A stretch of 64,000 nucleotides of DNA from a virus (Duplodnaviria; Heunggongvirae; Uroviricota; Caudoviricetes). This document shows, in pieces, positions 15,414 through 31,251 of the stretch. A program made the position numbers and the translations under genes. A model generated the notes under the pieces. That model saw only the letters and a list, made by a program, of their open reading frames with translations, was not told the DNA's origin and searched no databases. The DNA lies in the IMG/VR virus record IMGVR_UViG_3300029288_007064. One strand, written 5' to 3'. The stretch's first letter is position 1. Each line of letters opens with the position of its first letter.

Positions 15414-15422
15414 TCCCTCCGT

Positions 15423-16199: not shown

Positions 16200-16237
16200 C
16201 TTCTACGTCGTGAATCCCTCAATCCCATTTATAAAGG

Positions 16238-16723
16238 TTATGTTGCTATTTCGGGCGAATATACGCCTATTCTAGCCATGTTTTCCTTGAACCACGTGTT
16301 AACCCCGATATAAACGAATAACAACGGCGAAAGCACCCCCACAACCACCGTATTGCCGATAAGGTGGCTTATTGTGAATGGAATCTGCCCAATAAATGCA
16401 TCCGCAAAGCTCATCGGAAATAACAACGGTCCTCCTATGACACCCGTAAGCAAATCGAATAACAACGTGCCTACAAAACTCATTCCTAGAAAGTTTATTG
16501 GATTTGCGGTAGGTTTAAAGTATGTGAAAGTTAATCCAACAATTCCCCATGCAATAAAGCACATTAAAGTCCATATACCCATCATTCCGGTTATTACATC
16601 AACTAACGCATACAACAATCCTCCCAACATGAATGCGTATTGTTTTTTAAGAAGTGGACAGAACGTAGTGGTCGCTACCATCAGCAATCCAAATGTCCAT
16701 GCAATAGTGATTGTAGTTTCCAC
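16238..16723 (-). CDS. polytopic membrane protein (ECF-transporter S-component-like size and topology; uncertain)
   Basis: 161 aa with about 5 predicted TM helices, Gly/Phe-rich. Confidence 0.35.
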   Translation of the reverse strand: METTITIAWTFGLLMVATTTFCPLLKKQYAFMLGGLLYALVDVITGMMGIWTLMCFIAWGIVGLTFTYFKPTANPINFLGMSFVGTLLFDLLTGVIGGPLLFPMSFADAFIGQIPFTISHLIGNTVVVGVLSPLLFVYIGVNTWFKENMARIGVYSPEIAT

Positions 16724-16724
16724 A

Positions 16725-17009
16725 TTAACACGCTCCTATTAAATAATTGCGTTGCTTTATTCGATGGAATTTTCCTTTTTTCAAAGCATTCCCAAATAAC
16801 GCGGCGGACATTACTAGTCCTACGAATATCGAAACAATTGGTGCATATTCGGTTATCCACAAATTAGCTAGATTAAATAATCCGAATGCTAATGCGAATC
16901 CGAATAAGAACCAAAATTCCAACATTACAATTGTGTGCCAATTCAAACCTATTGTTTTGACACACAATATTCCTTCCTTCTCGTTTAGGTATATTTTTCC
17001 GTTAATCAT
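16725..17009 (-). CDS. small membrane protein
   Basis: 94 aa with two hydrophobic helices. Confidence 0.35.
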   Translation of the reverse strand: MINGKIYLNEKEGILCVKTIGLNWHTIVMLEFWFLFGFALAFGLFNLANLWITEYAPIVSIFVGLVMSAALFGNALKKGKFHRIKQRNYLIGAC

Positions 17010-17205
17010 TTTTCTTCGCCCTCAATACTACTTCGTATTCTGTTGGTGTATGCAATCCTGCTAAAAATATCTCGTGCAAGGCACTTAGTGTTTTAGCCCT
17101 TCCCTCGAATACATAATTGTCGTTGAAAATACTGCCGTGCAATATTTTATCCAAGAGGTCTTTTGGTTTCCTTATTATTCCTGTTTCTATTACCAGTTCG
17201 ATCAT
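17002..17205 (-). CDS. small hypothetical protein
   Basis: 67 aa. Confidence 0.3.
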   Translation of the reverse strand: MIELVIETGIIRKPKDLLDKILHGSIFNDNYVFEGRAKTLSALHEIFLAGLHTPTEYEVVLRAKKND

Positions 17206-17945
17206 TTTTTCACCTTATATAACTCCTTTATGTTATCCGGAAACGTATTCCCAGGTTTATTGGTGAATGTGATATCTCCTTTCTCAGCACAGAACCAAAG
17301 ATTCGGTCCGAATCTTTTCCAAAACCACTCAGTAATAAAGTTCAATTGCGGTGGAAAGAACCTCGTATATGCTGCTTCATTAATTACTTTGTATCCGGAG
17401 TGCTGCAATAAATACTTCAGTGTGGGATAATTGAAGGTGTAGAAATGGCAGTCGCTTTCATATGTCTTCTTAATTCCTTGTGGAATAAGTGAAGTGTATT
17501 GTGGTATTTGTAATATCAGCTTCCCATCTTCTTTAAGCAATTCTCTACATTGAAGTAAGAAAGCATAAGGAGCAGTCAGATGTATGAGCATATCTGTGCA
17601 CCAAATGTAGTCAAACTTTTCACCGTTGAACTTATCATAAAATCTTTCTTCAACATTTAATCTTCTGACATCAAGACCTAATTTGCTACAAAAACCATAA
17701 TGCTCGTCTGAAATATCAATACCAACTGAACCTTTTCCAAAGTGAATCAAGTTCTGACCATAAGCACATCCAATGTCAAGAAGTTTCTTGCTCAAATCCA
17801 TATTAAATTTTCCATAGATGTATCTATGGTCTTTGAACCAATCTTTGAAGTAGAGATTGTATACTACTTCGTTCTGTTCTTTCGTGTATGCACCTTTATT
17901 CAATATTAGTTCTTCAAGGGTATTCGTTTCAATTATTTTTTCCAT
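17202..17945 (-). CDS. class I SAM-dependent methyltransferase
   Basis: 247 aa. Motif I LLDIGCAYGQN and post-I acidic residue (GIDISDE). Confidence 0.75.
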   Translation of the reverse strand: MEKIIETNTLEELILNKGAYTKEQNEVVYNLYFKDWFKDHRYIYGKFNMDLSKKLLDIGCAYGQNLIHFGKGSVGIDISDEHYGFCSKLGLDVRRLNVEERFYDKFNGEKFDYIWCTDMLIHLTAPYAFLLQCRELLKEDGKLILQIPQYTSLIPQGIKKTYESDCHFYTFNYPTLKYLLQHSGYKVINEAAYTRFFPPQLNFITEWFWKRFGPNLWFCAEKGDITFTNKPGNTFPDNIKELYKVKK

Positions 17946-18083
17946 TTGCTACACTTCCGGTTCTGGTACTGTACAATCTCTATATTTTAGATTTTGTTCT
18001 TTGAATGGATAAAACTTTTCCCTTTTATGATAATAACCATATTGATTACCACAAAGTTGTGTTCCGCAATGTTTGCATTTCAT

Positions 18084-18314
18084 TTACTCTCCCTCCTCGT
18101 CCTTGTCAATCACGTTGTCCACATAGTCCGTTAAATCATCTAAAACTCTTAGACGAATTATATACATTTTTCTTTCTTCATCAGCCACTTCCGGATTAAG
18201 TATTTCTCCATTCAGAGTTCCCTTTTCGGAAATCTCCTTTGCTTTCTCTTGGTACACCTTTTGGAGTTTCCAAATATATTTCAGCAATTTTGCATAGTCT
18301 TTCATTTTAATCAC
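18084..18314 (-). CDS. small acidic hypothetical protein
   Basis: 76 aa. Confidence 0.3.
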   Translation of the reverse strand: MIKMKDYAKLLKYIWKLQKVYQEKAKEISEKGTLNGEILNPEVADEERKMYIIRLRVLDDLTDYVDNVIDKDEEGE

Positions 18315-18507
18315 TTTGTTTTTTATTCGAGAATAATTTATAATGTAATTCTTTCGCTCTATCTAAACAAGATTTTTCTCCTTTCTTTGCTTCGGCATGA
18401 AAATGCATTCCGTCAAATTCATCATAAGGAACATTATGTATAATCTCTCTTCCACATCCATCACAACATAGATATGAAATGATACGTGCTTCTTCTTTCC
18501 AAGTCAT
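18307..18507 (-). CDS. zinc-binding small protein
   Basis: 66 aa; CCDGCG...H..H. Confidence 0.35.
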   Translation of the reverse strand: MTWKEEARIISYLCCDGCGREIIHNVPYDEFDGMHFHAEAKKGEKSCLDRAKELHYKLFSNKKQSD

Positions 18508-18632
18508 TTAATCGTCCTCTTCTTCAGCAACAAATATTTCCCTCGTAAATTTAAGTTGTCCAACCAAATTCTTTTCCTCTTCTGTCATTCCGTATTCCAT
18601 AGGTTTTCACCAAGAAATACCTTGAAACAAAC

Positions 18633-18652
18633 AATTTATAAACCTATGCTTT
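18633..18652 (-). promoter_or_regulatory. archaeal-type TATA-box-like promoter element (TTTATAAACCTATGCT)
   Basis: TTTATAAA at 18635-18642, 35 bp upstream of a tiny unlisted ORF (MEYGMTEEEK..., ATG at 18600) that is coupled to the 18307..18507 gene. Confidence 0.35.
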
Positions 18653-18898
18653 TCACATGTATCCAAGTTCTTGCTCTATTTCTCCGAACACCTTATTATA
18701 TTCTTTTTCATTTTTACGCATAATGTACGCTTCACGTAAAGATGCGATAATAAGACCAACACCTATGACGAAAAATACTATCCCAACACCAAGCTCAATG
18801 ATGCTTTCTGAGATTACAATTTGTTGATAACCCACTACTACAAAATACATCCACAATAAGCAATACATTACATAATCTCTCCATTTATCTCCTAGCAC
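18653..18898 (-). CDS. small membrane protein
   Basis: 81 aa with two TM helices. Confidence 0.35.
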   Translation of the reverse strand: MLGDKWRDYVMYCLLWMYFVVVGYQQIVISESIIELGVGIVFFVIGVGLIIASLREAYIMRKNEKEYNKVFGEIEQELGYM

Positions 18899-20004
18899 TT
18901 AATCACCTTCTTAAATTCAATTTCTGTTTGCTTTACATTATTCTCCCAAGAGTGTTCTGTTGCAACTTTGTTGTATCCATTTGTTCTTAATGTTTTCATC
19001 AATTTCTGATTATCTAATTTCTCAACTACTTCTATCAATGCCTTAATATTTTCTTCTCTTGGTTCTGATGGAATAAGCAAACCATTAACTTTATCTTCAA
19101 TAAGTTCCTTATTTGGTTCAATATCGCTTGCAATTACTGGAACCTTTTCTGAGAACGCTTCTAGTATTGAATGAGACATTCCTTCATATGAAGAGTTCAG
19201 AATAAATGCTTTAGAGCAAGTAAGAATATTCATAAGCATAGCATTAGACAACTTTCCAGCAATCCGGATGTTTTTATATGGTTTTGCTTGTGCTCGTAAT
19301 TCTTTTTCAAGTGGTCCATCTCCTATTATGAGTATTTCTCTTTTTGGCATTCGTGAAAATGCTTCAATAATTCTATCAAATCTTTTCCATGGGACATATC
19401 TTCCATAAGCAATACATTTATCAGACCCAATTGCATCGTTATTTGGAGCATGTATTGCATTGTTTATTGCAACAATCTTTTTATCCTCTATTCCATAACA
19501 TTCATGTATAATCCTCTTCAAATATTTACTCGGAGTTATTACCAGAGAGCAATACTTCAATACTTCTTTCTGTATTTTTATTATATGCGGATTTGCGTCT
19601 GGGTCTTTAAGAAATGGTTCAAGTTCCTTTTCACTCGTGTTTTCTCTTCTTGCTTTCTCCCATGCAGTATCGCCAGCATATCTTATTGCTACAGGAATTT
19701 TAAACATATTTCCAAACACAACACAATTGGAACCTATCGCTGCGATATCTAAACCATATATAAGGTCGCTATCTCTTGCATACTGAGAAAGAGCTTTTAC
19801 TATTCTCATACTATTCATTATTTCTCCTTGTCGTATTATACTGTACACTTCTAGTCCATATTTCTGTTTTGGATGTTCTTTACATAATGTAATGATTTTT
19901 ACTTCATGTCCTTTCTTCTTTAAACCTAATGCCAAAGGCACAACATATGTTGCTGGACCACCAATCTCCGGAGGGAATAGTGGTGTTACGATTGTTATTT
20001 TCAT
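18892..20004 (-). CDS. GT4-family glycosyltransferase
   Basis: 370 aa; GT-B architecture; C-terminal EGMSHSILEAFSEKVPVIASD EX7E-like motif. Confidence 0.8.
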   Translation of the reverse strand: MKITIVTPLFPPEIGGPATYVVPLALGLKKKGHEVKIITLCKEHPKQKYGLEVYSIIRQGEIMNSMRIVKALSQYARDSDLIYGLDIAAIGSNCVVFGNMFKIPVAIRYAGDTAWEKARRENTSEKELEPFLKDPDANPHIIKIQKEVLKYCSLVITPSKYLKRIIHECYGIEDKKIVAINNAIHAPNNDAIGSDKCIAYGRYVPWKRFDRIIEAFSRMPKREILIIGDGPLEKELRAQAKPYKNIRIAGKLSNAMLMNILTCSKAFILNSSYEGMSHSILEAFSEKVPVIASDIEPNKELIEDKVNGLLIPSEPREENIKALIEVVEKLDNQKLMKTLRTNGYNKVATEHSWENNVKQTEIEFKKVIKC

Positions 20005-21506
20005 GGCTTAATCACCTGACCATTTTGGTCATATGAACACTTTTTCATTTTCTTAGTTCTCCCTTTCAAATATTTATTCGCGATAATGTATTCAATAGGG
20101 AAGTCAAAGTATTTAAATTTCCACCTTAGTTTTGAAGCTGTTATGAACAATCTCTTAAACAGATTATTCACTTTTATTCCTCCTTCCATTAGTCTTGTCT
20201 CTGGTGTAAGTGCAAAGTTCATGTATGCCCAAATTGCTTCAACAAAGTCTGGCTCATTCACCCATGGAAGTTTTGTTACTGAAATGTAGCTCCATTCTGT
20301 TTCCATTAAGTCAGACCATGCTTGCAAACTATCCGGTGCTTTCCATCCAAACGCTTCACATTCGTTATCCAAAGGACTTCCTGGATATGGACGGTAAGGT
20401 TGTGGTCCAATAAATTCAGCGTTAGGATTGGCTTCATAGAGCCTTGCAAACGCATCTATGGTTAGGAGCATATCTTCCTTTGTTTCATTAGGAAGACCTA
20501 TCATGAATGAATACTCAGGAGTGATTCCGAACTCCTTGGATTTCTTTGCCGATAAAACCAACTGGTCTGTACTTACATCTTTTTTAATCATACGCAATAT
20601 TCTTGGCGAACCGCTTTCTGCCCCAAAGCAGAACTTGTAACACCCAGAATCTTTTATCAACTGTAAGTATTCATCTGTTATAACTTTTGTGAAGTAATCA
20701 CCACGTACAGTCGTCTCCCATTCTACTTTTAATCCTCTGTCTATAATTCCTTGCATTATTTCTTTGGAGCGTTTTGGGTTATTAAAGAAGTTTTCATCCC
20801 AAAACCTTATCTTTCTTCCAGGATATTTCTTTGCAACCTGTTCAAGTTCATCAAGCACTCTCTTAGGAGACATTCCTCTCCAGCCACATCCGGTTATTGG
20901 ATTGATGCAATAAGCACATCTATGTGAGCACCCTCTGCTTGTATGTGAAGGCAATAACTTAATTTTATTCATTACTTCTTTATTTAGCAAGTCATAATTT
21001 ATGTATGGTGCTTTGTCCATATTAATGTAAGGTCTTCTAGGAGTGTGAATTACTTTACCATCTTTTTTAAATGTCAATCCTAATATTTTATCCAAACTTT
21101 TACTTTCACTTAAAGCTTTAGTTAATTCTACGCATGTTACTTCTCCTTCGTCTCTTACAACAATATCAACACGAGAGTCTATTACAGTTTGTGCTGGAAA
21201 TAAAGTTGGATGTGGACCACCCCAAACAATTGGAACTTCTGGTGCAAACTTCTTTATGTATTCGCTTAAAAATAATGCATGCGGTATCTGCACAGTCATT
21301 ACTGATAAGCCAATCCAAGTACAATTTTCTATCTCTTTTTTTATTTCTACTAGATGTTCTTTTGTAGTAAGACAATCAATAATTTTAACATCTATTCCTG
21401 CTTCCTTTAATGCCGAACCAACATATGCTATTCCTATCGGTATGCTTGTTGCATTACTATCAAATTCCAATCCGCTAAACACAGGATTAATCAATAACAC
21501 TTTCAC
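20001..21506 (-). CDS. B12-binding-domain radical SAM enzyme (class B)
   Basis: 501 aa. N-terminal Rossmann-like B12-binding domain (MKVLLINPVFS...IIDC...VWGGPHPT), then a CxxxCxxC cluster (SRGCSHRCAYCINP). Confidence 0.85.
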   Translation of the reverse strand: MKVLLINPVFSGLEFDSNATSIPIGIAYVGSALKEAGIDVKIIDCLTTKEHLVEIKKEIENCTWIGLSVMTVQIPHALFLSEYIKKFAPEVPIVWGGPHPTLFPAQTVIDSRVDIVVRDEGEVTCVELTKALSESKSLDKILGLTFKKDGKVIHTPRRPYINMDKAPYINYDLLNKEVMNKIKLLPSHTSRGCSHRCAYCINPITGCGWRGMSPKRVLDELEQVAKKYPGRKIRFWDENFFNNPKRSKEIMQGIIDRGLKVEWETTVRGDYFTKVITDEYLQLIKDSGCYKFCFGAESGSPRILRMIKKDVSTDQLVLSAKKSKEFGITPEYSFMIGLPNETKEDMLLTIDAFARLYEANPNAEFIGPQPYRPYPGSPLDNECEAFGWKAPDSLQAWSDLMETEWSYISVTKLPWVNEPDFVEAIWAYMNFALTPETRLMEGGIKVNNLFKRLFITASKLRWKFKYFDFPIEYIIANKYLKGRTKKMKKCSYDQNGQVIKP

Positions 21507-21925
21507 GATTTCTCTACCTCCTCTTTTACTAAAGCTAAATCCATTGCTACATCACGCATAAAATCTTCAAACTTTCTTGTTTCTAATTCTCCTTTTGCAC
21601 TTACGGGATTTATTACTAATGCTATTTGAACTTTGTAATATTTCTCCATCATATCTGCCAAGTCCTTCAAAAAAACTGCCGTTTTTATTTTGCTTTCTTC
21701 CATCTTACTATATGTATAATTCGTTTTGATATTGAACATACTTTCTAGTAAAAAGGCAGTTCTCCTTTTTTGGTCTGTGCTTAACTCTAAATCGACGCCA
21801 TTTAAAGATATATCAAGACTATCCGCCGGAATAATTACACATCCACAATTTCTTCCATACAAAGGTTCAAAATCAACCACATAATCATCGTGTCCTATTC
21901 TTATGCTAACAGATTCCGTATCCAT
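21503..21925 (-). CDS. hypothetical protein
   Basis: 140 aa; 4-nt overlap with the rSAM gene. Confidence 0.35.
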   Translation of the reverse strand: MDTESVSIRIGHDDYVVDFEPLYGRNCGCVIIPADSLDISLNGVDLELSTDQKRRTAFLLESMFNIKTNYTYSKMEESKIKTAVFLKDLADMMEKYYKVQIALVINPVSAKGELETRKFEDFMRDVAMDLALVKEEVEKS

Positions 21926-22384
21926 TTATTTCACCTTTTGAATATACTTTAACACATCATTATCCATATTAAACATTCCATCCACCGCCTTATCCGATAA
22001 CTTTCTCTTTTTATTTATTACAGAATAAACATAATTCTCTACATCACCTGATATAAGGTGTACGACCGTTTTTCTACGAGTGCTATCGAGCCTATGAATT
22101 CTATCTTCCACTTGCGATAGAACAGCAGGATTCCAAGGGAGTGTATAAACAATCAAAGTATCAAATTCATCCAAGTTCATTCCATACGATAATATCTTTG
22201 TAAAAATCATTATTACATTTTTGTCTGTGCTTTTTGCTAATTTAATTGCTTGCTCTCTATCTTCTTGTTCTGTATCACCAGATAATAGAATAATCTCCGT
22301 ATTCTCATATTTATCCTTTAGTTCATTATAAATTATATTAGCAACTGTCTTGAACTCAGAATAAATAGCAACTTTTTCACTCAT
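21926..22384 (-). CDS. SNF2-family ATPase, C-terminal helicase lobe (motifs IV-VI) as a separate ORF
   Basis: 152 aa. KVAIYSEF (motif IV-like), SYGMNL (motif V-like) and QVEDRIHRLDST (motif VI, QxxxRxxRxGQ-like). Confidence 0.7.
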   Translation of the reverse strand: MSEKVAIYSEFKTVANIIYNELKDKYENTEIILLSGDTEQEDREQAIKLAKSTDKNVIMIFTKILSYGMNLDEFDTLIVYTLPWNPAVLSQVEDRIHRLDSTRRKTVVHLISGDVENYVYSVINKKRKLSDKAVDGMFNMDNDVLKYIQKVK

Positions 22385-23669
22385 AGTTTTTCACCTTCTC
22401 CTTGAAACCTAATTCTTGCAAAATATCTTTTACTTCATCTATTTTTCCACTTCCTCCATCTATTTGTAAATTCTTCGCTATTTCGGATTTACTTTCTTTC
22501 AATGCCATAGGATGAGCAGCATTTATTCGGAGCAAAGCGAATAAGCCAAATGTATTTGTAGTGTTGTTATTTATTCCCTTTACTAGAGTTTTTAATTGAT
22601 ATTCAATCGATTCTTGACACTTTGTCAGAGGAATTTTTCTTACTTCATAATTCTTTGGAAGTAAATCTGTTACTTCTTCTTTTGTTCTTCTTATGAAATA
22701 AGGCAAAGCCTCTTTTCTAAATTCTTCTATACCTTTAAAGCCAACAATCTTTCTATAATCTCTTCCATTAACTTCTATAAAATCCCAAACACAATATTCA
22801 CCGTAAAATTTGTTTTTTGACATCCAATTTGGCTTTACTATGTTAAGTATGTTATGGAAATCCGATAACGAATTTTCAAGAGGAGTTCCTGTAAGTAATA
22901 ATACATCGCTTGCTTCCTTTCTTGCACGTTCCATTGTGAAATAAAGCAAACTCTTTGACGATTTGCATCGACTAATTTCATCGCCAATTATAAAGTAGTT
23001 GCTTAGATTTGGCTTATCATTCCTAAGTGTTTCATAACTAACAATGCTCCATTTCTTGTCGTTATTCCATAGTTCCGCCCTCTTCTTCTTTTGACCTTCA
23101 ATAATCTGAATTTCATCCGAAACTTCTGGGAGCCATTTTTCTATTTCTTGTTTCCATTGCAATTTAAGAGAATTTGGACACGTAATAAGTATTTTTTCAT
23201 TAAAAATTCTATTTCTAATATCTGCAAGATGTATTGCTTGAGTCGATTTTCCTAATCCCATCTCGTCTGCGATAAGAAACGAACCAGTTTTTATTGCTTG
23301 CCTTATTCCTTCTTTTTGAAAATCTTTTAGTTGACTTCCTGTATATAATTGATTAAATAACGCAAGTGCTTTTAAATACTTTTCCTTCTTTTCTTGTGCG
23401 TTTTTAACGAATAAGGACGCCTTGGCAGACAAAATAGGGCTAAAGATAAGGAGCTTTCGCTGAATGTCCTCGAAATCGTTATTCTCTAATGGAATTATCC
23501 ACGCTCCTTTTCCAGATTTGGTAATTATTGATGGATTCCAAATTGCCCTTGTAAAGTTTTCCTTAATAACTTTTATGATATTCGGATTGTAAGGTGTAAT
23601 AACCATTGCATATTCATTTTCTATATCGAGTTCTACAACCATGCTTATTCCACCTTTTCCCTCCTCCAT
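22377..23669 (-). CDS. SNF2-family ATPase, N-terminal lobe (motifs I-III) as a separate ORF
   Basis: 430 aa. LKDFQKEGIRQ (Q motif), LIADEMGLGKSTQAI (Walker A) and IIGDEISRCKS (DExx box). Stop overlaps the ATG of the C-lobe ORF. Confidence 0.75.
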   Translation of the reverse strand: MEEGKGGISMVVELDIENEYAMVITPYNPNIIKVIKENFTRAIWNPSIITKSGKGAWIIPLENNDFEDIQRKLLIFSPILSAKASLFVKNAQEKKEKYLKALALFNQLYTGSQLKDFQKEGIRQAIKTGSFLIADEMGLGKSTQAIHLADIRNRIFNEKILITCPNSLKLQWKQEIEKWLPEVSDEIQIIEGQKKKRAELWNNDKKWSIVSYETLRNDKPNLSNYFIIGDEISRCKSSKSLLYFTMERARKEASDVLLLTGTPLENSLSDFHNILNIVKPNWMSKNKFYGEYCVWDFIEVNGRDYRKIVGFKGIEEFRKEALPYFIRRTKEEVTDLLPKNYEVRKIPLTKCQESIEYQLKTLVKGINNNTTNTFGLFALLRINAAHPMALKESKSEIAKNLQIDGGSGKIDEVKDILQELGFKEKVKNYE

Positions 23670-23854
23670 ATTTCACCGCACTTTGTGCAAAGCAAAATAA
23701 ATTGGTCTTGATATTTGATTTTTGCCATGACTTCCTTTCCTTTTATCTTGCAATCACATTCAACTTCAGGGTCTTCCTTTGCAAATACCGTTTCATCTTC
23801 TATTTTGGTTATTTTGTCTTCATCTGGTATTGTTTCTTCATCCATATATATCAC
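23645..23854 (-). CDS. zinc-ribbon protein
   Basis: 69 aa; CDC...CTKCG. Confidence 0.35.
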   Translation of the reverse strand: MIYMDEETIPDEDKITKIEDETVFAKEDPEVECDCKIKGKEVMAKIKYQDQFILLCTKCGEIWRREKVE

Positions 23855-23855
23855 C

Positions 23856-24068
23856 TTAAATAAATGCTTTCAATTCTTCATCTACTTGCTTATCACATTT
23901 ATCTTTGCAATAAGCTAGTTTATATTCTTCACCACGTTTAATCTTTCCTTCTTTTTTCTTACACCGTGGACAAATTGTTGCCATCATATCACCCTGTACA
24001 TGCTTTATCATAAGGTCTTGACATAAACTCTTGTACATCTTCTTCGTATAAATATCTATCACACACAC
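23856..24068 (-). CDS. zinc-ribbon protein
   Basis: 70 aa; CPRC...C..C. Confidence 0.35.
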   Translation of the reverse strand: MCVIDIYTKKMYKSLCQDLMIKHVQGDMMATICPRCKKKEGKIKRGEEYKLAYCKDKCDKQVDEELKAFI

Positions 24069-24348
24069 CCATATAATCTCTGAATTTATTGTCTCTTCTT
24101 ATCATTTCGCGAGAGTGTTCATCTATTTTATATTCTAGATGTAATAACTCATGATAAACAGTTGCTACAAATCTATGATAATTTTTATCTTCAGCAACTA
24201 CAATTGTATTGTTTTGTAGTATTGCACAACCACGACCTATATGTGGACAGTATTGTTCAGTTGCTTCCCAATCCGGCACAACAATTATATGTGGTGTTGA
24301 ATTAAGTGTAAGGCAAAATGCTGCAAATGTCATACAAAATGTCCACAT
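23989..24348 (-). CDS. small secreted or membrane-anchored HExxH zinc-metallopeptidase-like protein
   Basis: 119 aa. Hydrophobic N-terminus (MWTFCMTFAAFCLTL) and HELLH motif (VYHELLHLEY). Overlaps the upstream ORF end, so the true start is uncertain. Confidence 0.4.
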   Translation of the reverse strand: MWTFCMTFAAFCLTLNSTPHIIVVPDWEATEQYCPHIGRGCAILQNNTIVVAEDKNYHRFVATVYHELLHLEYKIDEHSREMIRRDNKFRDYMGVCDRYLYEEDVQEFMSRPYDKACTG

Positions 24349-25368
24349 TTATTTTACCACCGCTTTTATTTCTTTAGACATATTCTTCATCAAGTTTTTT
24401 AATGAATGTTGTTTACGAACTCTCAATTTTAGTTCATCACCTATCCATCGTGCTTCATTTGGATGGTTTAATAACCATTGCATTTTCTTTGCTAAATCTT
24501 TTACATCTCCCTTTTCAAATATACATTCTTTTTCATAATCTCTCAGAATTTCATTAAATGCTTCATTGCATACGAGTACAGGTTTGCCAGAAGCCATCGC
24601 TTCTAGTGCAGTCTTATCTAAACTACCAGTTCTACTCGCCGAAACAAAAAATAAGCACTCTGAATACATTTTTGGCATCATTGTATTTGGAATACTCCCA
24701 AGCAATGCTACTTTCTTACAAATCTTTCTATCAAATATCAATTTTTGTAATTTAGCTAGAGTTTCTTTTTCTGGATAAGGGTCTTCTCCAGCAATTTCTA
24801 AATGAACTTTGTTTTTAAGTTTTGCAAATGCTTCAATAACTACGTCATTATCTTTGATTGGTGACAATCTTCCAGCACTAAAAATATACCATCCTTTTGA
24901 TGAATAAAATTTAGAACAATCTATTCCTTGACTTAATACGACTTTCTTTTTGCTTAGAACTCTAAATCCAGATTCAGTAGATGTAATAACTTTAGTAGCA
25001 ATCTTTTCTGCTATTTGTAATTCTTTAGTTATTGCACCATGAGCATGAAACATCACTATTGGTATTTCATAAAGTGCTGCCGAAGGGAATATTGCGATAA
25101 CGAACTCTGGACACATGTGAGTTAGTATTACAGTTGGTTGTATTTGTGAGACTCTTCTGTTTATTTGCCATGTCTTTGCGGATTTGCAACCTGAAATCTT
25201 ATGTAGTTTTACATTCTCTGGCATTTCCATACCTTTGCCTCTCATATAGAAAACATCTATCTGCTCGAAATGATGTGATAAAAGAATTACCCAATTGGCA
25301 AAGAAGCCAAGTAAGTCTCCATCTTCATCTATTTCTTGAGTAATTATCAGCAGTTTCATTTTATTCAC
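24349..25368 (-). CDS. GT4-family glycosyltransferase
   Basis: 339 aa; GT-B fold; C-terminal ALEAMASGKPVL motif. Confidence 0.75.
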   Translation of the reverse strand: MNKMKLLIITQEIDEDGDLLGFFANWVILLSHHFEQIDVFYMRGKGMEMPENVKLHKISGCKSAKTWQINRRVSQIQPTVILTHMCPEFVIAIFPSAALYEIPIVMFHAHGAITKELQIAEKIATKVITSTESGFRVLSKKKVVLSQGIDCSKFYSSKGWYIFSAGRLSPIKDNDVVIEAFAKLKNKVHLEIAGEDPYPEKETLAKLQKLIFDRKICKKVALLGSIPNTMMPKMYSECLFFVSASRTGSLDKTALEAMASGKPVLVCNEAFNEILRDYEKECIFEKGDVKDLAKKMQWLLNHPNEARWIGDELKLRVRKQHSLKNLMKNMSKEIKAVVK

Positions 25369-25506
25369 CCAAATAAATATTCCACCACTTTCAAAAGTAT
25401 ATAAAATCCAATAACTCCTATCATAACTCCTGCCAGTATTCCTCTATAGAATGAATCATTTGAAGAACCAAACTTACTTGCAATTTCTAATGCTCTCTTT
25501 TCTTTT

Positions 25507-26637
25507 TCATCCATTCATTTCACCCGCAATTAACTCAAACATTCTTCCTTTCATTTCTGATGTTTTCGTAATGTCATATTCCTTTATTGCTTTCTTTGCA
25601 TTATTAACTCTTATTTCTGTTGCTTCTTTATTTTCTGGAATTAGTACATTTAATATTGCATCTACAAGAGCATCTTCGTAATCGCCAGATACCATTGCTG
25701 TGTTTTCACTTATTATTGGATTAACTCTTCTTACAGCATTACTAACAACTACTGGAATACCATGTGCCATTGCCTCAATAACAACTAGTCCCCACCCTTC
25801 ATGCTTGGAAGGAAGAACCAAACAAGTCGCAGTATCATATTCACGATTTAAATCATTTTCATTAAGTCTTCCCAAGAAAGATACTTCATTTTGAACTTCT
25901 AATTGCTGACATAGATTTTCTAGGTTTTCTTCTTCTGGTCCTTCTCCTACTATTCTTAATTGATATTGATATCCTTCATCAATTAGTGTTGCAAATGCTT
26001 TGATAAGTAACTGAACATTCTTCTGAGGTACAAGTCTTCCTACAAACAGTATGGTGTTATCAGACCGTATTGACTTTACAACAGACTCTTTTATTTGAAT
26101 ATTTGTGCCTACGGGGATAAAGAAAACCTTATGAGGAGGAATACTCAACTTCAGCATATCGCTTAGTAGTTTTGGTGAAACAGTTCTAACTGCATCTGCT
26201 CTTTTGAGTAATTCCTTGCCAATGATATTTAGTATCCAATTATACCATCTTTCTTCTATCCATACTGGATTGTCAATCATTTCTGAATGCAAGTCAATTA
26301 CCAGCGGTATGCTTTTCTTTTCGAATAACCAGAAATACTTCTTTAGTATCCATCCAAGAAATCCTGTAAGGAAGGGGTCTTGGGTATTGAGGATGTGAAA
26401 GGACAGTTTCTTCAGTTCCCAAAACCCTTCCCACAGGAATAAAATGGGATTGTGTGATAAGCCAATATATTCTACGTTGTCTTCTTGCTTTGTTATTGGA
26501 TGCTGATTGCAAAGTGAGGTCATATATACATACTCATGATACGAGGAATAATATTTCATTCTATCGTGTAAATCACCTACAGGATTATCAGAGAATATGG
26601 AAGGGTCTCTTCCTATCATGAGTATGCGTGGTTTCAT
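25507..26637 (-). CDS. GT4-family glycosyltransferase
   Basis: 376 aa; HEGWGLVVIEAMAHGIPVVVS EX7E motif. Confidence 0.85.
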   Translation of the reverse strand: MKPRILMIGRDPSIFSDNPVGDLHDRMKYYSSYHEYVYMTSLCNQHPITKQEDNVEYIGLSHNPILFLWEGFWELKKLSFHILNTQDPFLTGFLGWILKKYFWLFEKKSIPLVIDLHSEMIDNPVWIEERWYNWILNIIGKELLKRADAVRTVSPKLLSDMLKLSIPPHKVFFIPVGTNIQIKESVVKSIRSDNTILFVGRLVPQKNVQLLIKAFATLIDEGYQYQLRIVGEGPEEENLENLCQQLEVQNEVSFLGRLNENDLNREYDTATCLVLPSKHEGWGLVVIEAMAHGIPVVVSNAVRRVNPIISENTAMVSGDYEDALVDAILNVLIPENKEATEIRVNNAKKAIKEYDITKTSEMKGRMFELIAGEMNG

Positions 26638-26673
26638 ATATTCACCTTATAAAAGAAAAATAAGAAAGGAGCT

Positions 26674-28098
26674 TTACCTCCTTCCTTTCTTTTTCTTAAA
26701 GTTTCTTTCTTCTGGCTGCTCCTCTGGTGTAGGCTCTTCTTCTGCAATTTCGTCTTCTATGGGCAGGTCTTCATCTGGTATGACTTCTTGCTTCTCTTCT
26801 GTTGGTGACTCTTTCCTTACAAACCCAAGCTGAGATGCAATTTTATTAATCATCTCCATGTTATTCTTTCCTGCAGCTTGTGCCATCTGGTTTAAAGCCA
26901 TCCCTTCCTCTGGACCCACGCTTATATCACCTAGCAATCCCTTGCTTACGAGATTTTTGGTTTGTCCTGTTATTATGTTGATGTGGGCATTATTCAAACC
27001 AACCTCATATGCCTTTGCATAAGCAATTTGCACTTCCTTACCTGCTTTAATCAGTTCAATGTTTGTTGCTGCATCATTGAACTTCCTTTGTGCATCTGCA
27101 AGTTTTGAAGTACCAGCGGCATCTGCTTCCTTCTTTGCCTGTATAATTCTTGCTTCAGATGTTCCTATTTGCTGCACTTTAGATGCTTCTCCTTCTGCTT
27201 CAAGTTTGAGTTTTTCTCTTGTCGCAGTTGCTCTTTGTACAGTTGCTTCCTTTTCAACTTCAGCAGACCCAACTTCAATCTTCCTCTTAGCTTCTATCTT
27301 TTTGATGTTTGCAAGTGCTTCTGCTTCTGCTTTTTTCTGCTCCTTTTCTTGCTCAGCAACTGCAATAGTTCTGTCTCTTTCAACTTGTCTCTTTTTCCAT
27401 TGCTCTTCTGTTTCTGCTTTTCTCATTTCAGCAGCTTGTGTTGCTTCTGCTTCAACAATTCTTGCTTCTTTGTCTTTGTTCGCAACTACAATTCTCTTTT
27501 CTGAATTAATTTCTGCAGCTCTTTTTGCTTCAATATCTGAAATTATAGTTGAACCAGCCATATCTTTAATGTCTTTGATTTCCAAATCAACCAGTTCTAG
27601 TCCCCATCTAGGAAATACCGTTGACACCTCTTTTGTTACGGCTTCATCCAGTTTGTTTCTATCCATATAAATTTCCAGAATAGTTTGCTTTGTTGATACT
27701 GTCCTTCCTACAGATTCCATGATAATTCTTAGGTCAGAGGCAACTTTTTCAATGCTTTCCTCATAATTCTCCTGAGCAGACGTAATGTCTGTTCTTTCTG
27801 CACAAAGCATTGGGTCTGAAATGTTTACGAAACAAGTTACATCGCAAGAAAACTTTGCCATGTTCTTGTCGTTTAACTTTACATCAGGTACCTCAACTCT
27901 AAGATTTGTAAGAGGAAGCTTGTGCAATTTTGTTACAAATGGAATAACCCAATAACTAGGTTTGAACCTTTCCCTGCAGCAAAATGCTTCTCTCTTATCA
28001 AACATTACCCTCACGTGCACTTCATTCGCTGGAACCACACGATACATCCCTAAAATACCACCTAAAAAGTTTATCGCTTGCATATCCTTCACCTTCAA
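26674..28098 (-). CDS. SPFH/band-7 (flotillin/YqiK-like) protein with long Glu/Ala/Lys-rich coiled-coil
   Basis: 474 aa. N-terminal membrane-associated SPFH domain, then an EA-rich repeat region (AEAEATQAAEMRKAETEE...) and an acidic C-terminus. Confidence 0.75.
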   Translation of the reverse strand: MKVKDMQAINFLGGILGMYRVVPANEVHVRVMFDKREAFCCRERFKPSYWVIPFVTKLHKLPLTNLRVEVPDVKLNDKNMAKFSCDVTCFVNISDPMLCAERTDITSAQENYEESIEKVASDLRIIMESVGRTVSTKQTILEIYMDRNKLDEAVTKEVSTVFPRWGLELVDLEIKDIKDMAGSTIISDIEAKRAAEINSEKRIVVANKDKEARIVEAEATQAAEMRKAETEEQWKKRQVERDRTIAVAEQEKEQKKAEAEALANIKKIEAKRKIEVGSAEVEKEATVQRATATREKLKLEAEGEASKVQQIGTSEARIIQAKKEADAAGTSKLADAQRKFNDAATNIELIKAGKEVQIAYAKAYEVGLNNAHINIITGQTKNLVSKGLLGDISVGPEEGMALNQMAQAAGKNNMEMINKIASQLGFVRKESPTEEKQEVIPDEDLPIEDEIAEEEPTPEEQPEERNFKKKKGRR

Positions 28099-28574
28099 TT
28101 ATCCACTTCACTTCCTATTACTGAATACCTATATATTTTTCCATCATCTGCCATAAAACTTAGACGTACTTCATCGTTATCTGTATCGTCTTCGTCTTCA
28201 TATTTGCAGATATACATTTTATTGAACATCCACATTTTCTTGAAGATTTCAACAAACAAGTCCCATTCACAGACACGAATACTACGAATACTATAATCGT
28301 CCATGCTAGATTCTTGTCCATTCCATTCTTCTATCAAACGGATGTTCTCCGTTTCCTTCAATACCAAGTTTGGTATATCTTCCTTTTGTATTTTCTTCTT
28401 AAGTTCTTTGTATTCATCTTCTATGTCCATACCTTCACCTTCTTCTTCATTATTTTCTTCTTCCTCCTCTTCTTCAGTCTCTTCTTCTTCTTTGGTCAAA
28501 AAAGAAAGAATTACTGATATCCCCATAAAAGCTGCAAAAATCCAAACTATATTTTGTGTAAACCATTCAATCAT
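28095..28574 (-). CDS. membrane protein with acidic linker, possible NfeD-like partner of the SPFH protein
   Basis: 159 aa. N-terminal TM helix, poly-Glu stretch, beta-rich C-terminus. 4-nt overlap with the SPFH gene. Confidence 0.3.
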   Translation of the reverse strand: MIEWFTQNIVWIFAAFMGISVILSFLTKEEEETEEEEEEENNEEEGEGMDIEDEYKELKKKIQKEDIPNLVLKETENIRLIEEWNGQESSMDDYSIRSIRVCEWDLFVEIFKKMWMFNKMYICKYEDEDDTDNDEVRLSFMADDGKIYRYSVIGSEVDN

Positions 28575-28578
28575 TTTA

Positions 28579-29019
28579 TCACCTTTGTCTAAACCTACAG
28601 AAATAACTTTCCATGGTTCTTGGATTTAATTTTCCTTTCCACGAGGCAGCGTAAACTCTGCATACACTGGCGGGAGTAAGACAGTTTTCAATCATATATA
28701 GTTCCATTTCTCTTCCATATATTTTTACATATTCTTGAAGTGTCCTTCCGAGAAGTTTGACATATTTTGTTTTTCTTCCTCTACGAACATAAACTTTGTC
28801 GAATATCAATTCTTCTGCATCACCAATATCAAACTCTAAATTTCTAAATGATTTCAGCACTCCCCTTTCTATTTCGTCATCAGTATTACCATAATCGTCG
28901 ATAGTATATATTGCCTTTGCAATAACTACCACTTTAATCTTTTCTGGTTTCTTCGTCATATTTTCACCTTTCCTTTTGCTCTCATTTCTAATACCAACTG
29001 ATTCCTGCAAGGGTCGCAA
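28579..29019 (-). CDS. hypothetical protein
   Basis: 146 aa. Confidence 0.35.
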   Translation of the reverse strand: MRPLQESVGIRNESKRKGENMTKKPEKIKVVVIAKAIYTIDDYGNTDDEIERGVLKSFRNLEFDIGDAEELIFDKVYVRRGRKTKYVKLLGRTLQEYVKIYGREMELYMIENCLTPASVCRVYAASWKGKLNPRTMESYFCRFRQR

Positions 29020-29192
29020 ATACTGTGGCTTAATGTTTGTCCCTTCATAATATCCTCAACCCAAGGTGGAGCAATATTTCCACTTATTCTGTTTCTCCAT
29101 ATGTCTTTTCCTTCCTTGTGCCATGCACAGCATACATAGAACTTCCTTATACGGTCTTCCCTTTTATCAAGCAATACATCTCTCATTTGCAC
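28956..29192 (-). CDS. zinc-binding small protein
   Basis: 78 aa; CCAWH...CDPC. Confidence 0.35.
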   Translation of the reverse strand: MQMRDVLLDKREDRIRKFYVCCAWHKEGKDIWRNRISGNIAPPWVEDIMKGQTLSHSICDPCRNQLVLEMRAKGKVKI

Positions 29193-29647
29193 ACACCTGA
29201 GAATATTGATTATTTCTTTAATCTGTCCAATAAGGACTCAAATCCTATCCATAGGAGGAATACTAATGTGCCACCTACACCAATCCCTACACCCACCAAA
29301 AATCCAGTTGCTATTATTTCCAATGGTTCCATTTATTCACATCTCTGTTTCTATTACTAGTATTGTCTTTCCGTCGTTGTACTCGATATCACATAATATA
29401 ACTTCATCAGTTATATTAAATGCTTTTTTTAATTCTTCTTCAGATATTTCATATCTTTTTCGTTCTGTCTTTTTCATCTTACCACCTCATGATTCTTCTA
29501 GCTTCTTCTCTTGCAAGAGCAGAAATTACTAATCCTTTTGCACGATGTTCAACTTTACCTCTACACCCACCACAAATTTTTATCTTTCCTTGTTTTAGTA
29601 CTCCGTATTTACTTCCACAAATATCACATGTTTCTATTTTCATTATT

Positions 29648-31207: not shown

Positions 31208-31251
31208 TTACGTTTTGCTATTTTTAATTGAAACAAATAATCTTTAAACAT

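What the first reader, a model, noticed from the sequence alone, without database searches (positions are those of the whole stretch)
21926..23669. SNF2-family ATPase naturally split into two overlapping ORFs at the inter-lobe junction
The N-lobe (motifs Q, I, II, III; 430 aa) ends at 22377. The C-lobe (motifs IV-VI; 152 aa, starting MSEKVAIYSEF right at motif IV) begins at 22384, overlapping in ATGA fashion.
The break falls exactly between the two RecA-like lobes, which looks like a functional two-subunit enzyme rather than a random pseudogenising frameshift.
Basis: seen in the sequence. Interest (0 to 1): 0.55.

Follow-up and report, generated by a model that had tools for sequence, protein, structure and literature searches.

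The report
Phage SNF2 helicase split in two
An uncultured virus carries its SNF2-type DNA motor gene as two overlapping genes, and the second has its own strong translation start, so the split looks real and expressed; it is a one-off variant of a common phage helicase and its function is unproven.

Summary
On the minus strand, ORF 22377..23669 (SNF2-rel_dom) and ORF 21926..22384 (Helicase_C) are collinear halves of one phage SNF2 "DNA helicase" (phrog_62).

Corrections:
- The overlap is 8 nt (ATGAGTGA), not ATGA.
- The first ORF probably starts at 23642 (421 aa).
- The break lies after the first helix of lobe 2, not exactly between the lobes.

This is not a simple point frameshift. Compared with intact relatives (38-48% identity, 534-558 aa), the window has 22-28 extra nt exactly at the break. 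They supply AAGGAGAAGGTGA plus ATG. This start site outscores 96% of true gene starts and all 907 internal ATGs in the window. Catalytic motifs are intact in both halves.

Against a conserved two-subunit enzyme:
- Every relative found is a single ORF, and the split is seen in only one virus.
- The C half has three unusual substitutions at conserved positions.

A distant viral contig (L020) is split at the same point by an HNH homing-endonuclease gene. That suggests, but does not show, a homing-endonuclease scar.

Best reading: a real split into two co-translated pieces that probably reassemble (about 0.55). A young pseudogene is the main rival (about 0.3). Interest is modest.

The parts
22377..23669 (-). 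N-piece ORF: HARP-like N-terminal domain, SNF2 lobe 1, and the first helix of lobe 2. It is 430 aa from ATG 23669 and more likely 421 aa from ATG 23642.
   Evidence: ORF list. Pfam SNF2-rel_dom 106.9 bits and ResIII. phrog_62 positions 685-1000. Start-site score 3.93 at 23642 against -1.45 at 23669. AlphaFold mean pLDDT 82.9, with Foldseek matches to SNF2 remodeller ATPases.
23481..23615 (-). HARP-like N-terminal domain (residues 10-54 in 421-aa numbering).
   Evidence: hhalign of the window-clade N-termini (A2) against a set that includes a Pfam-HARP-positive phage homologue (A3): probability 94.9%, E 4e-8. The L025 N-terminus scores 29.2 bits on HARP against a cutoff of 25. The window itself gives no direct Pfam hit.
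22563..23291 (-). SNF2-related domain (lobe 1, motifs Q, I, Ia, II, III).
   Evidence: Pfam PF00176 covers residues 127-369 of the 430-aa ORF. Q109, G129/G131/K132, D221/E222 and T253/P254/N257 are conserved. N228S is a window-specific deviation.
22410..22445 (-). Helix KIDEVKDILQEL, the first helix of the Helicase_C/lobe-2 unit, encoded at the end of the N piece.
   Evidence: With the insert removed, Helicase_C matches profile positions 2-109 starting at KIDEV. The real C ORF matches only 16-109. AlphaFold places helix 400-411 after a coil at 384-399, with pLDDT about 66. Ino80 lobe-2 matches start at query residue 395.
22382..22409 (-). Extra junction sequence GGTTTCAAGGAGAAGGTGAAAAACTATG (28 nt, or 22 nt under the alternative parse). 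It is absent from intact relatives. It encodes the N-piece tail GFKEKVKNYE* and carries the ribosome-binding site and start codon of the C piece.
   Evidence: Protein alignment A1 has a 10-column window-only insertion. Codon-level comparison with L003 and L004. The distance from K400 to the motif IV aromatic residue is 29 residues in the window and 17-23 in 196 of 198 homologues. The sequence is unique in the window.
22391..22403 (-). Shine-Dalgarno-type site AAGGAGAAGGTGA, 6 nt upstream of the C-piece ATG.
   Evidence: AAGGTGA occurs 32 times on the coding strand, 24 of them directly before ORF starts, and only 3 times on the other strand. The junction start site scores 6.57, above 96% of true starts and all 907 internal ATGs. 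K-E-K-V is spelled AAG GAG AAG GTG, all rarer G-ending codons, p = 0.0044.
22377..22384 (-). 8-nt overlap ATGAGTGA: the C-piece start ATG (22382..22384) and the N-piece stop TGA (22377..22379).
   Evidence: Sequence and frame translation. Short overlaps are the usual gene junction in this window.
22373..22394 (-). 8-nt direct repeat GTGAAAAA (22387..22394 and 22373..22380, period 14). E-K-V is encoded twice (GAGAAGGTG and GAAAAAGTT). The A5 run in the first copy is the only place where losing one base would fuse the frames.
   Evidence: Read directly from the sequence. This makes the insert boundaries ambiguous and allows a local-duplication origin.
21926..22384 (-). C-piece ORF, 152 aa: SNF2 lobe 2 from the motif IV strand onward (motifs IV, V, VI) plus two C-terminal helices.
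   Evidence: Pfam Helicase_C 62.1 bits. phrog_62 positions 1004-1140. AlphaFold pLDDT 80, with the first element a strand at residues 4-8. Foldseek TM 0.68-0.76 and rmsd 2.2-2.6 A to lobe 2 of SRCAP, ISWI, Fun30 and SWR1.
22091..22114 (-). Motif VI, QVEDRIHR (Q91, R95, R98 of the C piece), carrying the arginine fingers.
   Evidence: Invariant in alignments A1 and A5 and in the 88-sequence set.
21932..22048 (-). C-terminal helices of the C piece (residues 113-134 and 141-151), a possible contact to lobe 1.
   Evidence: AlphaFold secondary structure, pLDDT 52-69. The contact role is inference only.

Best explanation
This is a real split of a phage HARP-like/SNF2 DNA translocase (phrog_62 'DNA helicase') into two genes that are translated separately but are translationally coupled.

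Shown:
- The two ORFs are collinear halves of one gene.
- Relative to intact homologues, 22-28 extra nucleotides sit exactly at the break. They shift the frame, end the N piece with a 10-residue tail (GFKEKVKNYE*), and supply a top-scoring ribosome-binding site plus ATG for the C piece.
- The cut is in the loop after the first helix of lobe 2 and just before the motif IV strand.
- Catalytic residues of both lobes are intact.

Inferred:
- Ribosomes that finish the N piece, or bind afresh at AAGGAGAAGGTGA, start the C piece 5 nt upstream of the N stop.
- The two polypeptides reassemble by fragment complementation. The helix KIDEVKDILQEL left on the N piece would dock onto the lobe-2 sheet of the C piece, perhaps helped by the C-terminal helices. 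This would rebuild the inter-lobe ATP site (Walker A/B on the N piece, arginine fingers on the C piece).
- The reassembled enzyme acts as a dsDNA translocase or fork-remodelling (annealing-helicase-like) motor in virus replication or recombination.
- Origin is either the scar of a homing-endonuclease gene that once sat at this site (as still seen in L020) or a local duplication of the EKV-coding segment, followed by selection on the start signal.
For: - Halves of one gene: Pfam and PHROG hits at adjoining profile positions.
- Real in the assembled sequence: exactly the same two proteins on three contigs.
- Extra junction sequence absent from all relatives.
- AAGGTGA is the genome's ribosome-binding motif: 24 of 32 coding-strand copies precede ORF starts.
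- The junction start site scores above 96% of true starts and all 907 internal ATGs.
- The ribosome-binding site is spelled with rarer G-ending codons, p = 0.0044, while the C-piece copy of EKV uses the common GAA AAA GTT.
- Catalytic K132, D221/E222, G489, Q512, R516 and R519 are intact. The motif IV F-to-Y change keeps the aromatic residue, which PMC6019379 reports as the requirement.
- The C lobe is as similar to intact P0124 (42%) as the N lobe is (38%) and keeps PWNPAVL.
- The AlphaFold model of the C piece starts with the motif IV strand and matches SNF2 lobe 2 at TM 0.68-0.76. Lobe 2 alone has been crystallised for Fun30 (5GN1) and ISWI (5JXT).
- The N-piece model ends in a lower-confidence helix at 400-411 plus a disordered tail.
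- Independent precedent at the identical point: L020 has an N piece ending ...IIDQIIND*, then an HNH endonuclease ORF, then a C piece MSKIIIFTQW... matching Helicase_C profile 16-110.
- Functional precedent: phage Aeh1 NrdA, split by mobE, works through tails created by the insertion (PMC3045599).
Against: - No relative shares the split. The nearest homologues (38-48% identity) and the top 60 listed of 617 matching cultured-phage records are single ORFs.
- The split proteins are singletons known from one virus.
- The C half deviates at 3 of 11 highly conserved columns (F429Y, F471A, D502T). Only 5% of homologues deviate that much. Lobe 1 also has N228S.
- Lobe 2 is less similar to the P0002-P0004 clade (37%) than lobe 1 is (51-53%).
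- Other stand-alone C lobes in the databases are singletons, and several are clearly degraded or artefactual (L021, L022, L024, and the N-gap in L025).
- Association and ATPase activity of the two pieces are untested. SNF2 lobes have little stable interface with each other (established knowledge).
Confidence: 0.55

Rival explanations
1. Young pseudogene. A 22-28-nt insertion or duplication broke the helicase gene recently. The N piece alone cannot hydrolyse ATP, and the C ORF is still open only because too little time has passed.
For: - All relatives are intact, and the split is seen in one virus only.
- There is an excess of substitutions at conserved C-lobe columns: 3 of 11, matched by only 5% of homologues. 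Lobe 2 also has lower identity to the nearest clade.
- Other split or stand-alone C lobes are mostly decayed or artefacts.
- Fragmented gene calls caused by indels are common in phage genomes (PMC8351571).
- RecA-like domain 1 alone binds ligands but needs domain 2 for hydrolysis (PMC6019379).
Against: - A random insertion would not be expected to create one of the best start signals in the window at the right spacing and frame, spelled with rarer codons.
- All catalytic residues and the 152-codon frame are intact in a 35% GC genome.
- The C lobe keeps PWNPAVL, which P0124 also keeps but the P0002-P0004 clade has lost.
- C-lobe identity to P0124 equals or exceeds N-lobe identity.
Confidence: 0.3
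2. Sequencing or assembly error. The true sequence has A4 rather than A5 at 22387-22391, giving one ORF with a 9-residue in-frame loop insertion (...QELGFKEKVKTMSEKVAIYSEF...).
For: Removing one A from the A5 run joins the frames with no stop. Helicase_C still scores 63.9 bits on that fused version. The pre-motif IV loop tolerates insertions in other lineages (L006 repeat insertion; outliers P0166 and P0268).
Against: Exactly the same two proteins were recovered from three contigs. The ENA record name (k141_...) suggests a MEGAHIT short-read assembly, in which errors in a 5-base run would be unusual; this is my inference from the name, not checked. The fused loop would be 28 residues against 17-23 in 196 of 198 homologues. 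A canonical start signal buried in a loop would be a coincidence.
Confidence: 0.07
3. Programmed +1 ribosomal frameshift. On GTG AAA AAC, the P-site tRNA-Lys slips from AAA to the overlapping AAA, helped by the adjacent SD-like GGTG, and produces a fused full-length protein in addition to the N piece.
For: A +1 slip on the A5 run gives perfect re-pairing and an open path into the C frame. An SD-like element lies immediately upstream, as in prfB (prfB from established knowledge).
Against: The A-site codon AAC is neither a stop nor rare (226 of 788 Asn codons). No relative has such a site. The SD plus ATG at normal spacing is explained more simply as an initiation site.
Confidence: 0.04

Closest known systems
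Phage SNF2-family 'DNA helicase' (PHROG phrog_62; Pfam SNF2-rel_dom + Helicase_C), common in tailed-phage replication modules
   Same: Both halves match this family at adjoining profile positions. The motif set and the small N-terminal HARP-like domain are the same. The relative in L003 sits next to PolB and an ERCC4 nuclease.
   Different: Family members are single polypeptides of about 530-560 aa in the nearest relatives. Here the gene is cut before motif IV, with 22-28 extra nt at the cut.
Phage Aeh1 nrdA-a / mobE / nrdA-b 'genes in pieces' ribonucleotide reductase (PMC3045599)
   Same: An essential-type phage enzyme is cut into two ORFs inside a catalytic unit, and the new ends carry short tails not present in intact homologues. 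In Aeh1 those tails came from the endonuclease insertion and are needed for activity. L020 shows the same arrangement (piece, HNH gene, piece) at the window's cut site.
   Different: The window has no endonuclease gene between the pieces, only 28 nt. Activity of the split enzyme is untested here.
Ino80/Swr1 'split ATPase' SNF2 remodellers
   Same: SNF2 motors that tolerate a large interruption between motif III and motif IV.
   Different: They remain one polypeptide. Their insertion maps upstream of the SGK helix, between query residues about 351 and 395. The window's cut is after residue 411.
SMARCAL1-type HARP-SNF2 annealing helicases
   Same: The architecture is a small HARP-like domain in front of an SNF2 motor. 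The link is by profile-profile comparison to a phage homologue that passes the Pfam HARP threshold.
   Different: The window's own domain does not hit Pfam HARP. There is one domain rather than SMARCAL1's two (two HARP domains from established knowledge). Annealing activity is untested.
'Fractured genes' with split inteins flanking a homing endonuclease (PMC2677866)
   Same: Viral DNA-metabolism genes broken into adjacent pieces.
   Different: There are no intein fragments here. The N piece ends 10 residues after the homologous sequence and the C piece starts 2-3 residues before it.

Membership tests
SNF2 family ATPase (SF2) | SNF2-related N-terminal ATPase domain above Pfam's gathering score | tested here: met
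   PF00176 106.9 bits against a cutoff of 24.9 on the N ORF.
SNF2 family ATPase (SF2) | Helicase_C (lobe 2) with motifs IV-VI, including QxxxRxxR | tested here: met
   PF00271 62.1 bits against a cutoff of 23.5 on the C ORF. Q512, R516, R519 and G489 are conserved.
SNF2 family ATPase (SF2) | Walker A GxGK[ST] and motif II DExx | tested here: met
   GLGKS (G129, G131, K132) and DEIS (D221, E222) sit in invariant columns. The adjacent conserved Asn is Ser in the window (N228S).
SNF2 family ATPase (SF2) | Both lobes on one polypeptide | tested here: not met
   Stop at 22377-22379. The C frame is +1 and has a TGA two codons upstream of its ATG.
SNF2 family ATPase (SF2) | Fold of each piece resembles SNF2 lobe 1 or lobe 2 | tested here: met
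   Foldseek on AlphaFold models. The C piece has TM 0.68-0.76 to lobe 2 of SRCAP, ISWI and Fun30. The N piece has E 1e-12 to 1e-15 against SNF2 remodellers and SsoRad54 1Z63.
SNF2 family ATPase (SF2) | DNA-stimulated ATPase or translocase activity | not testable with these tools
   Needs biochemistry on the co-expressed pieces.
phrog_62 phage DNA helicase | Match to the family profile across the motor | tested here: met
   N ORF E 1.2e-50 at positions 685-1000. C ORF E 4.1e-21 at positions 1004-1140.
HARP-SNF2 annealing helicase (SMARCAL1-like) | HARP domain N-terminal to the motor | tested here: inconclusive
   No Pfam HARP hit on the window even at E up to 10. P0002 and L020 hit weakly (E 0.06 and 0.03). 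L025 scores 29.2 bits, above the cutoff of 25. hhalign of the window clade against the L025 set gives 94.9%.
HARP-SNF2 annealing helicase (SMARCAL1-like) | ATP-driven strand annealing or fork regression | not testable with these tools
   Biochemical assay required.
Homing-endonuclease 'genes in pieces' (Aeh1 nrdA/mobE type) | Free-standing endonuclease gene between the two pieces | tested here: not met
   Only 28 nt lie between the homologous segments, with no ORF. The feature is met in the distant analogue L020 (HNH: Pfam 29 bits, PHROG 1.7e-15).
Homing-endonuclease 'genes in pieces' (Aeh1 nrdA/mobE type) | New tails at the split ends that are absent from intact homologues | tested here: met
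   The N-piece tail GFKEKVKNYE and the Met on the C piece fall in a window-only insertion.
Homing-endonuclease 'genes in pieces' (Aeh1 nrdA/mobE type) | Split enzyme retains activity | not testable with these tools
   Needs an experiment.
Split-intein 'fractured gene' | Intein N and C fragments at the broken ends | tested here: not met
   No extra domain-sized sequence at either end. Alignments to intact P0124 stop 10 residues before the N stop and begin at C residue 4.
Programmed +1 frameshift (prfB-like) | Slippery P-site codon followed by a stop or slow A-site codon, conserved among relatives | tested here: not met
   AAA-A slip is possible, but the A-site AAC is 29% of Asn codons and the site is absent from relatives.
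Ino80/Swr1 split-ATPase insertion | Interruption at the major insertion site upstream of the SGK helix, within one polypeptide | tested here: not met
   Ino80 matches break between query residues about 351 and 395. The window's cut is after residue 411 and yields two polypeptides.

The most novel reading that the evidence does not exclude
The virus makes a working two-subunit SNF2 motor in which the lobe-1 polypeptide donates the first helix of lobe 2 in trans. The loop before motif IV would then be a recurrently used permissive cut site, also split by an HNH endonuclease gene in L020. That would make it a natural example of fragment complementation across an SF2 ATPase core and a ready-made design point for split or inducible SNF2 motors.
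Probability: 0.4. Interest if true: 0.45.

Novelty: new variant of a known kind. Interest (0 to 1): 0.3.

Why it matters
If the two pieces reassemble, an SF2/SNF2 ATPase core can be built from two polypeptides cut inside lobe 2. That would mark a natural permissive site for engineering split motors. It would also extend the "genes in pieces" phenomenon, known for phage ribonucleotide reductase, polymerases and topoisomerase, to SNF2 helicases.

There is a practical point too. Gene callers will report such loci as a truncated helicase plus an orphan Helicase_C protein, so annotation pipelines should fuse or flag them.

If it is only a young pseudogene, it is an ordinary event in a poorly sampled virus.

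Tried and rejected
- **Closer relatives that share or lack the split.**
  - Word-indexed searches with each half found nothing closer than 48% identity for the N half and only the protein itself for the C half.
  - The full HMMER scan of 1.84 billion representatives found P0124 (42% identity) as the best intact match.
  - blastn and tblastn against cultured phages found only distant, intact homologues.
  - IMG/VR gave only 28-32% relatives.
  - A gapped DNA pattern spanning the junction, which would catch alleles with or without the insert, found nothing in metagenome or viral contigs.
- **A conserved family of stand-alone C lobes.** Rejected.
  - The roughly 150-aa hits starting at motif IV are all singletons.
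  - P0130's 59%-identical relative is an intact 552-aa ORF.
  - L022 lacks motifs Q, I and Ia.
  - L021 is a 2x-coverage contig in three pieces.
  - L024 is in three pieces.
  - The second break in L025 is an N10 scaffold gap.
- **Copy of the junction elsewhere in the window.** None was found, so the start signal was not visibly duplicated from another gene.
- **Endonuclease homologues in the window.** tblastn with the L020 HNH protein and the L003 NUMOD3-Vsr protein found only a NUMOD3 motif remnant near 12.4-12.5 kb and nothing near the junction.
- **C lobe acquired from another lineage.** The lobe identities to the P0002-P0004 clade are discordant. However, P0124 shows concordant identities and shares PWNPAVL, so vertical descent is the simpler reading.
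- **Literature on natural split SNF2 enzymes.** No paper describing one was found in the searchable library.
Full report
**1. What is in the sequence**

On the minus strand, ORF 22377..23669 (430 aa) is followed by ORF 21926..22384 (152 aa). The first hits Pfam SNF2-rel_dom (106.9 bits) and ResIII. The second hits Helicase_C (62.1 bits). Both hit the same phage family, phrog_62 "DNA helicase", at adjoining profile positions: 685-1000 and 1004-1140. They are therefore the two halves of one gene.

The junction reads ...AAGGAGAAGGTGAAAAACTATGAGTGAAAAAGTT.... The C ORF starts at ATG 22384-22382. The N ORF stops at TGA 22379-22377. The overlap is therefore 8 nt (ATGAGTGA), not ATGA. The C frame is +1 relative to the N frame and has its own TGA two codons upstream of the ATG.

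A position-weight matrix built from 45 gene starts in the window favours ATG 23642 (score 3.93) over 23669 (score -1.45) as the start of the N ORF. That gives 421 aa.

**2. Is it an artefact?**

Exactly the same two protein sequences were found on three contigs; the collection lists JGI, Logan and ENA as sources. The longest is the 93,958-bp ENA contig k141_2937403. The three may derive from the same reads, so this rules out an assembler quirk but not a systematic read error.

The only single-base change that would fuse the frames is loss of one A from the A5 run at 22387-22391. That would give ...QELGFKEKVKTMSEKVAIYSEF.... I could not inspect reads.

**3. Comparison with relatives**

- The nearest proteins among 5.8 billion are P0002, P0003 and P0004. 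They are 45-48% identical over the N half, 534-558 aa long, and all single ORFs with both domains.
- A full HMMER scan with the C half added P0124, 545 aa and intact. It is 38% identical in the N half and 42% in the C half.
- 617 cultured-phage records match this query. The 60 best-scoring records that the tool listed are all matched in one piece.

So no known relative shares the split. The nearest is still only about 48% identical, so this says little about how old the split is.

**4. Anatomy of the break**

In the protein alignment, the window has a 10-column insertion (GFKEKVKNYE / M) exactly at the break, and every other sequence has a gap there.

Codon by codon against L003 and L004, the window is collinear except for 28 nt inserted between ...CAA GAA TTA (QEL) and AGT GAA AAA GTT (SEKV):

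GGTTTCAAGGAGAAGGTGAAAAACTATG

E-K-V is encoded twice, as GAGAAGGTG in the N tail and GAAAAAGTT in the C ORF. An 8-nt direct repeat GTGAAAAA also lies 14 nt apart. Because of this, the insert can equally be read as 22 nt. Either inferred ancestor has a normal loop length.

The distance from the conserved Lys of the "SGK" helix to the motif IV aromatic residue is 17-23 residues in 196 of 198 homologues. In the concatenated window protein it is 29. The frame change therefore comes with a derived insertion and is not a bare indel.

**5. The insertion is a translation start**

- AAGGTGA is this genome's ribosome-binding motif. It has 32 copies on the coding strand, 24 of them 4-7 nt upstream of an ORF start, and only 3 copies on the other strand.
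- The junction has AAGGAGAAGGTGA, then 6 nt, then ATG.
- Its matrix score is 6.57. That is higher than 96% of true starts (leave-one-out) and higher than every one of 907 internal ATGs in 45 genes.
- The peptide K-E-K-V in the N tail is spelled AAG GAG AAG GTG. All four are the rarer G-ending codons, with a joint probability of 0.0044 under the window's codon usage. The C-ORF copy of E-K-V uses the common GAA AAA GTT.

This is what selection on the nucleotide sequence as a ribosome-binding site would produce. It is hard to reconcile with a random disruptive insertion.

**6. Where the cut lies in the fold**

- The real C ORF matches Helicase_C profile positions 16-109.
- If the insert is removed conceptually, the match extends to positions 2-109 and begins at KIDEVKDILQEL. 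Intact relatives also match from position 2.
- Ino80 chains match the query in two stretches, and the lobe-2 stretch begins at query residue 395, before that helix.
- AlphaFold on the N ORF (mean pLDDT 82.9) gives a confident lobe 1, then a coil at 384-399, then a lower-confidence helix at 400-411, then a disordered tail at 414-421.
- AlphaFold on the C ORF (mean pLDDT 80) begins directly with a strand at residues 4-8 and has the alternating strand/helix pattern of a RecA-like domain, plus two C-terminal helices.
- Foldseek matches the C model to lobe 2 of SRCAP, ISWI, Fun30 and SWR1 at TM 0.68-0.76 and rmsd 2.2-2.6 A. These hits include entries where lobe 2 was crystallised alone (5GN1, 5JXT). 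The N model matches SNF2 ATPases and SsoRad54.

The cut is therefore in the loop between the first helix and the first strand of lobe 2, not strictly between the lobes. This suggests how the pieces could stay together: the helix left on the N piece could dock onto the C piece. That step is inference.

**7. Signs of health or decay**

I compared the window with 88 non-redundant homologues at 34 columns that are at least 80% conserved.

- The window keeps all catalytic positions: K132, D221, E222, G489, Q512, R516 and R519.
- In lobe 1 it deviates at 3 of 23 columns, which is typical.
- In lobe 2 it deviates at 3 of 11 columns, and only 5% of homologues deviate that much. The three are F429Y in motif IV, F471A and D502T. 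F429Y keeps the aromatic residue, which is what ADAAD work found to be required (PMC6019379).
- N228S in lobe 1 is also specific to the window.
- Lobe 2 is 37% identical to the P0002-P0004 clade, against 51-53% for lobe 1. However, that clade has itself lost PWNPA, which the window and P0124 keep.

The picture is mixed. Nothing is broken, but lobe 2 has evolved somewhat unusually. That fits either adaptation to the split state or early relaxation of constraint.

**8. Other split SNF2 genes**

The HMMER scan returned several proteins of about 150 aa that start at motif IV. All are singletons. Their contexts differ.

- **L020**, a 22.6-kb viral contig, has an N piece of 385 aa ending ...GSKIPEIINIIDQIIND*. 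Next comes a 339-345-aa HNH endonuclease ORF (Pfam 29 bits, PHROG 1.7e-15). Then comes a 154-aa C piece, MSKIIIFTQW..., matching Helicase_C profile 16-110. This is the same cut point as in the window.
- **L025** has an HNH gene cutting a phrog_62 helicase just before motif II. Its second apparent break is a run of N.
- **L022** is a truncated remnant.
- **L021** is a 2x-coverage contig in three pieces.
- **L024** is in three pieces.
- **A Bacteroidaceae chromosomal SNF2** (P0034, six contigs) is broken in the same linker, inside a GNGQW-repeat insertion.

Two conclusions follow. The loop before motif IV is a permissive site that has been hit more than once. Homing endonucleases do fragment this helicase family. 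The window's C lobe is only 26% identical to that of L020, and much closer relatives are intact, so the two events are independent.

**9. Origin**

Two models fit the data, and I cannot separate them.

- **Scar model.** An endonuclease gene once sat here, as in L020, where the end of the HNH gene overlaps the C-piece start. It was later deleted. What remains is a few foreign codons fused to the N piece, plus the C piece's start signal. In support, endonuclease genes circulate in this virus group: a NUMOD3-Vsr gene lies two genes from the helicase in L003, and a NUMOD3 motif remnant lies at about 12436-12519 in the window. The Aeh1 NrdA precedent shows that insertion-derived tails can be essential for assembly of a split enzyme (PMC3045599).
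- **Duplication model.** The EKV-coding segment was duplicated locally (the GTGAAAAA repeat), and the start signal was then selected.

**10. Likely function**

The N-terminal roughly 55 residues are HARP-like through a bridging comparison. hhalign of the window clade against a set containing a Pfam-positive phage homologue gives 94.9%. The window itself has no direct Pfam hit.

Together with the phrog_62 assignment and the position of relatives next to PolB and an ERCC4 nuclease, the best guess is a dsDNA translocase or fork-remodelling motor used in virus replication or recombination. In the window, the replication genes lie 10-20 kb away: ERCC4-HhH at 33749-34441, PolB at 35174-37348 and a clamp loader at 40195-41091.

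**11. Verdict**

The split is real in the assembled sequence, and the C piece is almost certainly translated from its own start. Whether the two pieces form an active enzyme remains inference, at about 0.55. A young pseudogene is the main rival at about 0.3. A one-base error (about 0.07) and programmed +1 frameshifting (about 0.04) are minor rivals.

Fragmented genes, some caused by homing endonucleases, are well known in phages (PMC8351571, PMC3045599, PMC2677866). This is therefore a new variant of a known kind, seen in a single virus, and of modest interest.

Noticed in passing
window 1..64000 (for example 35174-37348, 33749-34441, 40195-41091, 4189-4953): The window looks like part of a large tailed-virus genome of at least 94 kb. 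Almost all genes are on the minus strand, GC is 35% and there are no tRNAs. PolB's best cultured matches are haloarchaeal tailed viruses at 27-29% identity. Together with an XPF-type ERCC4-HhH nuclease, a gp44/RFC-like clamp loader, a Thg1-like enzyme and GGTGA-type ribosome-binding sites, this hints at an archaeal host.
   Followed up: partly
window 12436-12519 (-): A short frame encodes ...KDTKNPMYGRHHTEESKSKITEQ*, a NUMOD3-type motif. It is 57% identical to the NUMOD3-Vsr endonuclease of relative L003 and lies inside no long ORF. It looks like a decayed homing-endonuclease remnant.
   Followed up: partly
L020 786-3465 (ENA ERZ16303040 VirSort_843, 22.6 kb): A distant viral SNF2 helicase is cut at exactly the same pre-motif IV point by a free-standing HNH endonuclease gene. 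The order is N piece (385 aa), HNH gene, C piece (154 aa), followed by a radical SAM gene.
   Followed up: yes
L025 434-2861: Another phrog_62 helicase is split by an HNH endonuclease gene just before motif II. A second apparent break is only an N10 scaffold gap.
   Followed up: yes
L005/L006/L007 (for example L006 2914-5456): A Bacteroidaceae chromosomal SWIM-SNF2 gene (P0034, six contigs) is broken in the same inter-lobe linker, inside a lineage-specific GNGQW/GEW repeat insertion. Its relatives of about 745 aa are intact.
   Followed up: partly
window 37345-39566 (-): Two adjacent, 4-nt-overlapping N6/N4 DNA methylase ORFs. The upstream one (38532-39566) matches only the first half of the Pfam profile (positions 2-111 of 221) at its C-terminal end. 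The downstream one has the whole domain with a roughly 140-aa insertion. This may be a truncated or unusual methylase.
   Followed up: no
window 1152-3576, 7913-9028, 18892-21506, 24349-26637 (-): The helicase sits inside a sugar-modification cluster. It includes UDP-glucose dehydrogenase, an NAD-dependent epimerase/dehydratase, four GT4 glycosyltransferases and a B12-binding radical SAM enzyme directly downstream. That is unusual company for a replication helicase.
   Followed up: no
window 55607-63382 (-) and 54208-55338 (-): A 2591-aa ORF whose only Pfam hit is DUF2341 near the N-terminus. It is followed by a 376-aa DUF1554 protein. These may be giant fibre or adhesin-type structural proteins.
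   Followed up: no
window 26674-28098 (-): A virus-encoded SPFH/Band 7 domain protein of 474 aa.
   Followed up: no
window, whole coding strand: AAGGTGA is a very strand-specific and position-specific start signal. It has 32 copies on the coding strand against 3 on the other, and 24 of the 32 lie 4-7 nt before an ORF start. It could be used to re-call gene starts here, for example 23642 instead of 23669.
   Followed up: yes
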